Of a stretch of DNA of 64,000 nucleotides, positions 21,776-24,562 are shown piece after piece; within the stretch, counting starts at the first letter, position 1, and every line of letters starts with the position of its first letter. A program made the translations under genes and the position numbers. Source of the DNA: the human T2T-CHM13v2.0 reference genome, Homo sapiens; the NCBI RefSeq assembly GCF_009914755.1, contig NC_060932.1, one strand, 5' to 3'. Below the pieces are notes generated by a model. That model ran no database searches. It was not told the DNA's origin and was given only the letters and a program-made list of their open reading frames with translations.

Positions 21776-22690
<915 letters not shown>

Positions 22691-22861
22691 TATATCTATA
22701 CATGCAGAAAAAGTATTACAGACTAGAAAAAGCATAAGCAAAATCCCAGTGGTAGGAAACAGCTTGCCATATTTGGAAGGGTTGACATCACCCACTGTAC
22801 TGCAATAGACAGTTGATATGTAAGAATACTGAAAAATCAGATTTGAAATATGAGTGAGAAC

Positions 22862-23329
22862 TGTCAGACCTCTAAGCTGAAGCTCAGCCATTATAATCCC
22901 AGTGACCTGCACATATATGTCCAGATGGCCTGCAGGAGCAAGAAGTCTGGAGCAGCCAAAAAACCACAAAGAAGTAAAACATCCAGTTCCTGCCTGAACT
23001 GATTAACCAACATTACAACATTCTACCATTGTGACTTGTCCCTGCCCTACCTTAGGTGATCAATAGACTTTGTGACATTCTTCTTCTGGACAATGAGTCT
23101 TATGATCTCCCCACCATGTACCTTGTGACCCCCTCTTCTGCTAACAATAGATAACCACCTTTTACTGTAATTTTCCATTACCTACCCAACTCCTATAAAA
23201 CAACCCCTTCCCCATCTCCCTTCACTGACTCACTTTTTGGACTCAGCCCACCTGCACCCAGGTGAATTAAAAGCTTCATTGCTCACCCAAAGCCTGTTTG
23301 GTGGTCTCTTCACATGGACGTGCTTGAAA
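22862..23329 (+). mobile_element. HERV-H-family LTR (LTR7C-like), complete U3-R-U5
   Basis: TGTCAG...CCAGATGGCCTGCAGGAGCAAGAAGTCTGGAGCAGCC...CCTATAAAAC (TATA)...ATTAAA...AAGCCTGTTTGGTGGTCTCTTCACATGGACGTGCTTGAAA. Confidence 0.92.
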
Positions 23330-23331
23330 TT

Positions 23332-23360
23332 TGGTGCCGAAACCTGGGATCGAACCAGGG
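23332..23360 (+). other. Extended primer-binding site: 29 nt complementary to the 3' end (including CCA) of tRNA-Phe(GAA)
   Basis: TGGTGCCGAAACCTGGGATCGAACCAGGG versus the reverse complement of mature tRNA-Phe, TGGTGCCGAAACCCGGGATCGAACCAGGG: 28/29, the single mismatch being a CpG C>T at 23345. Confidence 0.92.
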
Positions 23361-23397
23361 GATGTATACGTGCAGGCTTGGGCTCAAAGGCCTGACA
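23360..23397 (-). mobile_element. Inverted 38-nt U3 terminus of an LTR7-family LTR
   Basis: Minus strand reads TGTCAGGCCTTTGAGCCCAAGCCTGCACGTATACATCC. It is immediately followed on the plus strand by AGAAC, which duplicates 22857-22861. Confidence 0.9.
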
Positions 23398-24562
23398 AGA
23401 ACCACAGAGGGAAGCTGTCGAATACTAAGCCTAAGCATTAGGAATTTATGCTGCAGGCAGTGGAGAGCCTCGGGGGTGGTCTGAGCATGGTAGTGAGTTC
23501 CACATGCCAGAGAGTTGGAAACCAAGTCCAACACCCCATGCAGGAAGTGGGAGAAGACTGTGAACATACAGTCTCTCCCTCTTCTGGGCCAGATTTGAGA
23601 AAGCATTTTTCTTTCATTGTAAACTTTTTCTTTGACACATAAAAGCCAACACATCCAATAGAGGGTCTCAAAAAAACTGACAGTGCATTTCCTGTTTTCA
23701 ATGCCCCCCTCTAAGAAGCAGTAGCCCTCTAATCTCATTGAATTCTGGCTTAACTTTGAACTTGCAATTCAAAATAAAACCCAGTGATTGACTATTTGAT
23801 GGTGCTATTAAAAAAGTCAAAGGAATGTTAATGATTCTTAACCTTCATGAGTTCTATAAAGGAAAGGAAAGGTCAACAGGCACAACTGAGAAGAGAAAGG
23901 AGGTTGTCTAGCAGCCACAGTGAAAGTTCTGGAGGATGACTACAATGGGCACTAAAAGACCCTAGAAGGACCTGAGTAATTCAATTTTACCATAATAATG
24001 TGTGAGTGTTTGAGGACCAAACATCAATGCTACTTAAGATCAGAATCTTTAATTTTCTTTAATGGCCTTCAGATAATAAGAAAAAAACAAAATTTTCAGA
24101 GGTTCTGTGGCTGTTGAAGACAGACTCTGATCAGAACATTCATTTTAATAAGTACCCAGGTGACTGATGAAATCAGAATCAAATCCACAGAAATAAACCT
24201 AGAGAAATTCTGGTTTGCCCTTCACTTGTTTTTGATCCTCTCAAAAGCCACTTCACGAATACTTTATGTACAGAGAATCATAGACTTGAGAGGGGTTAAA
24301 AGATACAGGGCTCACAGCTCCAGAGTGGTTCTGCTGTATCTTAAAGCCATGTCTTCTAATCCAAGCACTAGTTCTTTGTCTACAGTCCCCTAGTTTATAT
24401 ATAATGAAACTAAATTCATAATGAATTGCTTAATTCCAAAAGTTAAATCAGTCTCGATTCCAGAATTCAAACACGTTACTACAGTCACAAAACCACGCCA
24501 CCTTTGTCTGCCGTTCACTTATGAATTTCCCCAGATTCATGACTCCATTGACCATGATCCAG

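What the first reader, a model, noticed from the sequence alone, without database searches (positions are those of the whole stretch)
22857..23402. HERV-H unit integrated through two U3 ends: TSD - LTR7C - tRNA copy - inverted LTR7 U3 - TSD
Seen: AGAAC (22857-22861), a complete LTR7C-like LTR (22862-23329), TT, 29 nt antisense to tRNA-Phe (23332-23360), an inverted LTR7 U3 terminus ending CTGACA (23360-23397), then AGAAC (23398-23402). Both ends of the 536-bp unit read TGTCAG inward, and there is no gag/pol sequence. Known: a provirus integrates through one U3 and one U5 end, and a solo LTR carries no PBS; U3-R-U5 plus tRNA-templated sequence is the structure of plus-strand strong-stop DNA. 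Inference: a strong-stop DNA failed second-strand transfer, switched template onto another plus-strand LTR end, and integrase inserted the product using two U3 att sites in one concerted event. This would be a germline fossil of a non-canonical retroviral integration route, possibly one of an unrecognised class of mini-elements.
Basis: partly seen in the sequence, partly recalled or inferred. Interest (0 to 1): 0.88.

Follow-up and report, generated by a model that had tools for sequence, protein, structure and literature searches.

The report
Retroviral strong-stop DNA fossil, two U3 ends
A 536-base relic on human chromosome 8 looks like a half-finished retroviral DNA copy (one LTR plus a copy of its tRNA primer plus a short back-to-front LTR tip) that was nevertheless pasted into the germline by the viral integrase, a rare record of reverse transcription going wrong.

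Summary
The order is: AGAAC, a full 468-bp HERV-H-type LTR, TT, 29 nt antisense to tRNA-Phe including CCA, an inverted 38-nt U3 tip, AGAAC.

- **tRNA copy:** it matches nine ARAGORN-confirmed tRNA-Phe genes. As a 29-mer it is unique in the genome.
- **Stub:** it is not a deleted copy of the forward LTR. It is the uninterrupted 5' end of a different LTR7 lineage, and that lineage carries Phe primer-binding sites.
- **Forward LTR:** its closest relatives are followed by His sites.
- **Flanking repeat:** 12 of 18 solo relatives have perfect 5-bp repeats. A chance AGAAC pair is about 0.001.

Best reading (0.65): a plus-strand strong-stop DNA read 11 nt past the usual stop in its tRNA primer. It was joined to a second, heterologous plus-sense U3 end, and integrase inserted it through two U3 ends.

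- **Class:** pattern scans of this genome found no second example.
- **Untested:** primate orthologues could not be examined.
- **Known parts:** tRNA read-through is known in HIV-1. The U3-U3 germline insertion appears undescribed in my searches.

Verdict: a real, single, unusual fossil and a new variant of a known kind.

The parts
22857..22861 (+). Left copy of the 5-bp target-site duplication (AGAAC)
   Evidence: Read directly. Identical to 23398-23402. Chance about 0.0011. 12 of 18 solo relatives have perfect 5-bp repeats.
22862..23329 (+). Complete HERV-H-type LTR (U3-R-U5, 468 bp), 7C-like lineage; starts TGTCAG and ends TTGAAA
   Evidence: Full-length matches at 84-92% identity to other LTRs. 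It differs from the well-supported majority of 25 relatives at 20 of 445 sites. Its R-U5 carries the lineage's diagnostic bases. Relatives in 5' LTR position are followed by TT, a His primer-binding site and the HERV-H leader.
23330..23331 (+). TT dinucleotide between the U5 end and the tRNA copy, as in every 5' LTR-PBS junction of the family
   Evidence: six 5' LTR relatives show the same TT before TGGTGCC.
23332..23360 (+). 29-nt DNA copy (antisense) of the 3' end of mature tRNA-Phe(GAA), CCA included; by my count tRNA positions 76 down to 48, i.e. 11 nt beyond the 18-nt primer-binding length
   Evidence: nine tRNA-Phe genes; gene sequence printed; the match ends where the gene continues differently; 29-mer unique in the genome.
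23360..23397 (-). Inverted first 38 nt of the U3 of a different LTR7 lineage (the one lacking a ~23-nt segment after nt 22); overlaps the tRNA copy by one G; ends CCTGACA on the + strand
   Evidence: 39 non-self hits at 93-100%; 19 LTR starts, 0-2 mismatches; differs from all 29 aligned relatives of the forward LTR by the segment.
23398..23402 (+). Right copy of the 5-bp target-site duplication (AGAAC)
   Evidence: The flank beyond it is unique in the genome.

Best explanation
The unit is a germline fossil of an aberrant HERV-H reverse-transcription product.

1. Plus-strand strong-stop DNA was made on a 7C-like minus strand, giving U3-R-U5.
2. It copied the attached primer, which was tRNA-Phe. 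It did not stop after 18 nt and ran on to about tRNA position 48.
3. Its 3' end, now unable to make the normal second strand transfer, paired through about one base with a second plus-sense U3 strand. That strand's 5' end lay at U3 nucleotide 1, most simply a nascent plus strand from a co-packaged HERV-H genome of the Phe-primed lineage.
4. Extension to that end, and probably reciprocal extension of the short strand along the strong-stop DNA, gave a roughly 540-bp linear duplex with a U3 attachment site at both ends.
5. Integrase processed both ends to CA and inserted them together, making the 5-bp AGAAC duplication.

Shown: the anatomy, the identities of the four pieces, the exact termini, and the family-typical duplication. 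Inferred: the order of events, the nature of the second template, how the product became double-stranded, and that integrase acted in a single concerted step. The unit has no coding sequence and no evident present function.
For: 1. **Strong-stop anatomy.** A full LTR, TT and a tRNA copy with CCA. CCA is not gene-encoded, because the tRNA-Phe genes lack it.
2. **The copy exceeds a primer-binding site.** 62 TT+Phe-PBS sites exist at up to 1 mismatch, yet the 29-mer is unique at up to 2 mismatches. The two Phe-PBS proviruses I read continue with leader sequence after nt 18.
3. **The stub is a true U3 terminus.** It is the uninterrupted 5' terminus of real LTRs and ends exactly at U3 nt 1.
4. **Both termini abut an exact 5-bp repeat.** 12 of 18 solo relatives have perfect 5-bp repeats, and chance is about 0.001.
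5. **Two lineages took part.** All 29 aligned relatives of the forward LTR have the extra segment the stub lacks. Stub-type LTRs go with Phe sites. A 7C-type U5 end joined to Phe is seen only here, 1 of 13 hits.
6. **Similar ages.** The LTR differs at 20/445 sites, the tRNA copy at 1/29 and the stub at 1/38.
7. **No other HERV-H sequence** lies in the 64-kb window.
8. **Precedent.** HIV-1 proviruses carry tRNA-Lys3 inserts of 7-54 nt from delayed second-strand transfer (PMC12657518, passages read). LTR7 subfamilies recombined, which requires co-packaging (PMC8912925, passages read). A HERV-H fossil with 25 nt of tRNA-His at a deletion junction exists on chromosome 5.
Against: - No orthologous empty site could be examined. 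The flanks are unique in this genome, so no paralogue can stand in.
- It is a single case. Scans for a primer-site start or a U5 motif followed by an inverted U3 end within about 8-110 nt found no second clean example.
- The junction overlap is only one base. That fits host end joining as well as template switching.
- The model needs two plus strands freed from their templates, which is inferred.
- Priming of a 7C-type genome by tRNA-Phe is unexplained. All six 5' LTR relatives have His sites. By my count the His and Phe 18-mers agree at 13 of 18 positions (sequences).
- The pattern scans need exact anchors, so diverged members would be missed.
Confidence: 0.65

Rival explanations
1. Same two U3 ends, different junction. 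Integrase joined the U3 ends of two separate viral DNA molecules to one target site (a two-donor event), or two viral DNAs met before integration. Host end joining then linked the distal end of a strong-stop-type DNA (LTR plus 29-nt tRNA tail) to the last 38 bp of the second DNA after resection.
For: The overlap at the junction is one base, which is typical of end joining. The stub is about the size that an integrase complex could protect (recalled, not tested). A similar-sized isolated inverted U3 tip of 35 nt lies 62 nt from a canonical provirus on chromosome 9. The two DNAs are of different lineages.
Against: It needs a chromosome break with two viral tails to be repaired cleanly. It needs a free duplex strong-stop DNA ending exactly within the tRNA copy. 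Nothing in the sequence separates it from template switching.
Confidence: 0.2
2. Two independent HERV-H insertions in opposite orientation were later fused by deletion, and the AGAAC pair is a coincidence.
For: The two U3 sequences belong to different lineages, as two separate insertions would.
Against: - Both outer ends are exact LTR termini next to an exact 5-bp repeat, with p about 0.001.
- The 11 extra tRNA nucleotides with CCA are not part of any provirus read here.
- A deletion would have to end precisely at the tRNA copy and leave 38 nt.
- No other HERV-H sequence is in the window.
Confidence: 0.05
3. A canonical provirus (U3 and U5 ends) was rearranged after integration by inversion plus deletion.
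For: Inversions next to the primer-binding site do occur in HERV-H: the chromosome 1 and chromosome 16 copies have an inverted leader.
Against: - The 3' LTR would have to be inverted exactly at its two boundaries.
- The two LTRs of one provirus are identical at integration, but the stub differs from the forward LTR by a lineage-specific segment.
- The tRNA extension stays unexplained.
Confidence: 0.03

Closest known systems
Defective HIV-1 proviruses with tRNA-Lys3 inserts (delayed second-strand transfer; PMC12657518, passages read)
   Same: Plus-strand strong-stop DNA reads past the m1A58 stop into the primer tRNA. The extra tRNA bases sit right after the primer-binding site and mark an aberrant junction. 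Insert lengths of 7-54 nt include the 11 extra nt seen here.
   Different: In HIV-1 the strand then lands on the minus strand further downstream, giving a forward-oriented deleted provirus with normal U3 and U5 ends. Here it is joined to an inverted U3 tip, there is no internal sequence and no U5 end at the right, and the record is germline and tens of millions of years old.
HERV-H fossil on chromosome 5 (G000:C5, about 129.19 Mb)
   Same: The same family. LTR, TT, and a tRNA copy longer than 18 nt (25 nt of tRNA-His, gene confirmed by ARAGORN) at an aberrant junction, with a perfect 5-bp duplication (CTCAC).
   Different: It continues forward into internal (gag-like) sequence and ends in a truncated 3' LTR with a normal U5 end, so integration was canonical.
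Solo LTRs formed by LTR-LTR recombination
   Same: One LTR flanked by a 5-bp duplication, with no coding sequence.
   Different: A solo LTR carries neither tRNA-derived sequence nor an inverted U3 tip, and its right boundary is the U5 end. 12 of 18 relatives show that plain form.
Concerted integration in vitro with two copies of one viral DNA end
   Same: Integrase joins a pair of like ends to target DNA with the virus-specific stagger. This is recalled textbook knowledge. PMC13020977 (listing abstract only) states that intasomes built from oligonucleotides mimicking viral ends recapitulate concerted integration.
   Different: That is a test-tube reaction with designed substrates. Here the like-ended substrate arose naturally and the product is fixed in a genome. 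I did not read a paper that tests U3-U3 pairs for a gammaretrovirus.
Circular retroviral DNAs with tRNA sequence at the LTR-LTR junction, and defective DNAs with inverted LTR parts (1980s avian and murine virus literature; recalled, not retrieved: one search found nothing)
   Same: tRNA read-through and strand-switch products were described among unintegrated viral DNAs.
   Different: Those are unintegrated forms from cell culture. I could not read the papers, so the degree of overlap is unknown.

Membership tests
HERV-H LTR (LTR7 group, 7C-like lineage) | Full-length homology to the family's LTRs from the TG start to the U5 end | tested here: met
   39 non-self hits at 84-92% identity, most covering query positions 1-466; 20 of 445 differences from the majority of 25 relatives, inside the family range of 2.2-8.9%.
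HERV-H LTR (LTR7 group, 7C-like lineage) | Copies in 5' LTR position are followed by TT, a tRNA-His primer-binding site and the HERV-H leader | tested here: met
   six relatives (L004, L005, L011, L026, L027, L030) show this. tRNA-His identity comes.
HERV-H LTR (LTR7 group, 7C-like lineage) | Assignment to the curated subfamily named LTR7C | not testable with these tools
   No repeat library (Dfam or Repbase) is on hand. PMC8912925 (passages read) describes 7c as old and heterogeneous but gives no 7c sequence in the text I saw.
Plus-strand strong-stop DNA | Begins at U3 nucleotide 1 and contains U3-R-U5 | tested here: met
Plus-strand strong-stop DNA | Ends with a copy of the 3' end of the mature primer tRNA, CCA included, after the 2-nt spacer | tested here: met
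   The copy is 29 nt rather than the canonical 18.
Canonical provirus or solo LTR | One U3 end and one U5 end abut the target-site duplication | tested here: not met
   the right boundary is an inverted U3 terminus. The U5 end is internal.
tRNA read-through defective provirus (HIV-1 type) | Extra tRNA bases directly 3' of the primer-binding site | tested here: met
tRNA read-through defective provirus (HIV-1 type) | The junction leads to downstream viral sequence in forward orientation, and the right end is U5 | tested here: not met
   the junction leads to an inverted U3 tip.
Integrase-mediated insertion | Exact TG...CA termini and a duplication of the family's length | tested here: met
Integrase-mediated insertion | Empty site with a single copy of the duplicated bases in a species lacking the insert | not testable with these tools
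   No primate genomes are held. The flanks have no paralogue.
L1-mediated retrocopy | Poly(A) tail and a longer, variable duplication | tested here: not met
   no A-run. For contrast, the chromosome 5 locus at 82.40 Mb has a T-run next to a tRNA-Phe fragment.

The most novel reading that the evidence does not exclude
This is a primary fossil of a retroviral particle that carried two different HERV-H genomes. It records three things that ordinary proviruses erase:
- The tRNA actually used as primer: Phe, on a genome whose relatives carry His sites.
- A strong-stop DNA that read through the tRNA stop and was extended on a second plus strand.
- Concerted integration in vivo through two U3 ends.

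If so, like-ended integration is a natural, if rare, escape route for dead-end reverse-transcription products, and similar mini-insertions may lie unrecognised in other genomes, annotated as solo LTRs plus a stray LTR fragment.
Probability: 0.5. Interest if true: 0.7.

Novelty: new variant of a known kind. Interest (0 to 1): 0.55.

Why it matters
Proviruses normally show only the end product of reverse transcription. This relic freezes an intermediate.
- It gives direct sequence evidence of which tRNA primed one replication cycle of an extinct virus.
- It shows that the stop in the tRNA primer was overrun in an ancient gammaretrovirus-like element, as it is in HIV-1 today.
- It shows that two HERV-H lineages met in one reaction, which fits the recombination inferred for LTR7 subfamilies.
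- It suggests that integrase will insert a DNA with two U3 ends in a living germline.

It also warns annotators that an 'LTR plus small inverted LTR fragment' may be one event rather than two. The practical weight is modest, because it is a single, non-functional locus.

Tried and rejected
1. **Rfam scan of 22000-24500** at E up to 10. It gave only weak chance hits and no tRNA call, as expected for a 29-nt fragment.
2. **Paralogous empty site.** The left flank holds an unrelated repeat only at 22485-22686.
3. **Stub as a deleted copy of the forward LTR's own U3 (self fold-back).** Rejected. The 38 nt are contiguous in many natural LTRs and differ from all 29 aligned relatives of the forward LTR.
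4. **Chimeric LTR** (U3 from one lineage, R-U5 from the Phe lineage). Rejected. R-U5 carries the 7C-like diagnostic bases.
5. **Class scans.**
   - One search found 0 hits. Its gap range did not include the window's own 45-nt gap, so it had no positive control.
   - One search found the window plus an unrelated chromosome 4 string.
   - Searches found 0 hits.
   - One search found the window only.
   - One search found chromosome 9. That proved to be a canonical provirus (duplication GAGCC) with a separate 35-nt inverted U3 tip 62 nt away.
6. **tRNA-His read-through scan**.
   - The chromosome 1 and 16 hits turned out to be an inverted leader that starts right after the 18-nt site. The extra bases fit the inverted leader as well as the tRNA, so I do not count them.
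   - The chromosome 5 hit is genuine.
7. **tRNA-Phe read-through scan**. The only extra hit is a T-run plus tRNA fragment inside unrelated sequence.
8. **Literature.** Searches found no description of a U3-U3 germline insertion or an integrated strong-stop DNA. The library lacks most older subscription papers, and I read no supplements.

Full report
**1. The observation**

Reading the window confirms every element at the stated coordinates:
- AGAAC at 22857-22861.
- A 468-bp LTR at 22862-23329, starting TGTCAG.
- TT at 23330-23331.
- A 29-nt stretch at 23332-23360.
- A 38-nt stretch at 23360-23397, ending CCTGACA.
- AGAAC at 23398-23402.

The repeat finder reports the inverted relation between the LTR start and the stub as two arms of 77% and 82% complementarity, split by a gap (pairs I1 and I2).

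**2. Identity of the LTR**

- A search of the window's own genome scored 40 of 2836 candidates. The 39 non-self hits are LTRs at 84-92% identity, most covering query positions 1-466.
- None extends past position 477 of 536, so the composite is unique among the hits scored.
- In 29 fetched relatives, six sit in 5' LTR position (L004, L005, L011, L026, L027, L030). They are followed by TT, a site complementary to tRNA-His and the HERV-H leader. None of the 29 is followed by a Phe site.
- Against the well-supported column majority of 25 full-length relatives, the window LTR differs at 20 of 445 sites (4.5%). The family range is 2.2-8.9%.
- Carter et al. (PMC8912925, passages read) place the 7c, 7o and 7bc wave at 25-40 My.
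- I could not test the subfamily name because no repeat library is on hand.

**3. Identity of the tRNA copy**

- The 26 nt without the CCA complement match nine other loci with at most 1 mismatch. ARAGORN calls a tRNA-Phe(GAA) gene at each of the nine, and none at the window locus.
- The printed gene sequence shows that the window follows the tRNA from its 3' end for 26 gene-encoded bases plus CCA. The gene then continues differently.
- With a 73-nt gene plus CCA, I count the copy as running from position 76 to position 48.
- The single difference from six of the genes is C-to-T at a CpG.
- The CCA shows that the template was a mature tRNA, not a gene.
- The copy is 11 nt longer than a primer-binding site:
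  - 62 TT+Phe-site strings occur in the genome at up to 1 mismatch.
  - The 29-mer occurs once at up to 2 mismatches.
  - The two Phe-site proviruses I read go on with leader sequence after nt 18.
- The usual stop is the methylated A at position 58 (PMC8599865, listing abstract; PMC12657518, passages).
- That position 47 of human tRNA-Phe is a modified base that could stall the enzyme is my recollection. It is not tested here.

**4. Identity of the stub**

- The 85-nt query across the junction hit itself in full. It hit 39 other scored loci (of 174 candidates) only over the 38-nt stub, at 93-100% identity.
- Oriented, 19 of these are the first 38 nt of LTRs with 0-2 mismatches.
- The stub is therefore an uninterrupted U3 terminus. 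It is not a deleted copy of the forward LTR.
- All 29 aligned relatives of the forward LTR carry an extra segment of about 23 nt after nt 22, which the stub type lacks.
- LTR7 reporter sequences printed in PMC8912925 also carry that segment. The stub therefore belongs to yet another LTR7 lineage. I recall it as 7B- or 7Y-like but could not test that.

**5. Two lineages in one unit**

- Stub-type LTRs on chromosomes 12 and 18 are 5' LTRs followed by TT and a Phe site. A third on chromosome 2 follows from coordinates.
- Of 13 hits for 'U5 end, TT, Phe site', only the window has the 7C-type U5 end.
- The window's R-U5 carries the 7C-like diagnostic bases, so the forward LTR is not a chimera.
- The unit therefore combines a 7C-like LTR with two hallmarks of the Phe-primed lineage: the tRNA and the U3 tip.
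- Co-packaging of different HERV-H RNAs is what the recombination among LTR7 subfamilies already implies (PMC8912925, passages).
- Either tRNA-Phe primed a His-site genome or an unsampled 7C/Phe recombinant existed. By my count the two 18-mers agree at 13 of 18 positions (sequences).

**6. One integration event**

- Both outer ends are exact termini (TG at the left, CA at the right) and touch an exact 5-bp repeat.
- Among relatives, 12 of 18 solo candidates have perfect 5-bp repeats, 2 have 4 of 5, and 4 have fewer. Mismatched flank pairs agree in 1 of 306.
- The chance of AGAAC/AGAAC is about 0.0011.
- No other HERV-H sequence lies in the 64-kb window.
- Two insertions fused by deletion, or a rearranged canonical provirus, would each need breakpoints exactly at LTR boundaries. 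Both leave the tRNA extension unexplained.

**7. Mechanism**

- The plus strand reads as strong-stop DNA that overran the tRNA stop and was then joined, with a one-base overlap, to the complement of a plus-sense U3 5' end.
- The simplest way to get a blunt duplex with U3 termini at both ends is that the strong-stop DNA and a short nascent plus strand of the second genome paired at their 3' ends and extended on each other. Both outer 5' ends are then natural plus-strand starts.
- This is inference. A junction made by host end joining, before or after a two-donor integration, fits the sequence equally well at the junction itself.
- That integrase can pair two like ends is known from test-tube work (recalled; PMC13020977, listing abstract only).

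**8. Is it a class?**

- Scans for a primer-site start or a conserved U5 motif followed by an inverted U3 end within about 8-110 nt found the window, one unrelated chromosome 4 string and one chromosome 9 locus.
- The chromosome 9 locus is a canonical provirus with duplication GAGCC. A separate 35-nt inverted U3 tip lies 62 nt beyond it, flanked by a 4-of-5 repeat. It is unexplained and is not a clean second case.
- These scans need exact anchors and would miss diverged members.
- tRNA read-through itself recurs. A roughly 1-kb deleted HERV-H on chromosome 5 has 25 nt of tRNA-His at its deletion junction, with normal ends and duplication CTCAC. This mirrors the HIV-1 cases of PMC12657518.

**9. 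Novelty and verdict**

- tRNA read-through, template switching and like-end integration in vitro are each known.
- Their combination as a fixed germline insertion with two U3 ends did not turn up in eight searches. The library lacks most older subscription papers, and I read no supplements.
- I rate it a new variant of a known kind: real and unusual, but single and without evident function.
- The decisive test, primate orthologues, could not be run here.

Noticed in passing
G000:C5:129188700-129190400 (L083+L076+L082), element on the minus strand: A roughly 1-kb deleted HERV-H. The order is: 5' LTR, TT, 25 nt of tRNA-His copy (7 nt beyond the primer-binding length), then forward internal gag-like sequence, then a truncated 3' LTR. 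It has a perfect duplication CTCAC. This is a germline counterpart of the HIV-1 'delayed second-strand transfer' proviruses.
   Followed up: yes
G000:C1:233073400-233075760 (L078, L075, L079) and G000:C16:66368800-66371200 (L080, L077, L081): Two HERV-H copies share an inversion of about 120 nt of leader that begins directly after the 18-nt His primer-binding site. The first bases after the site fit either the inverted leader or a tRNA read-through, so the origin is ambiguous. The shared junction suggests one ancestral event that was later copied.
   Followed up: partly
G000:C9:86242856-86242890 (in L089), 62 nt beyond the provirus at 86236933-86242788: An isolated inverted 35-nt U3 tip of LTR7 type lies just downstream of a canonical HERV-H provirus (duplication GAGCC). 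It is flanked by a 4-of-5 5-bp repeat. Its size is similar to the 38-nt stub in the window. The origin is unexplained.
   Followed up: partly
G000:C12:110388300-110388760 (L087), G000:C18:58847420-58847960 (L088); 62 sites: A HERV-H-like lineage with stub-type LTRs uses a tRNA-Phe primer-binding site and has a leader that differs from the His-type leader. At least 62 TT+Phe-site strings exist in the genome. Most were not examined and may belong to other families.
   Followed up: partly
G000:C5:82396900-82396922 (L086): A run of about 27 T followed by 23 nt antisense to the tRNA-Phe 3' end with CCA, inside unrelated repeat-like sequence. It looks like a polyadenylated tRNA-fragment retrocopy and is not linked to an LTR.
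   Followed up: partly
window 22485-22686: An interspersed repeat of about 200 nt, at 74-87% identity to more than 30 scored loci (1084 candidates), ends 175 nt before the insertion site. The family was not identified.
   Followed up: no
L036 (G000:C2:41385552-41388592): An LTR whose first 38 nt are of the stub type but whose following sequence resembles the 7C-like forward LTR. It is a possible natural recombinant between the two lineages.
   Followed up: no
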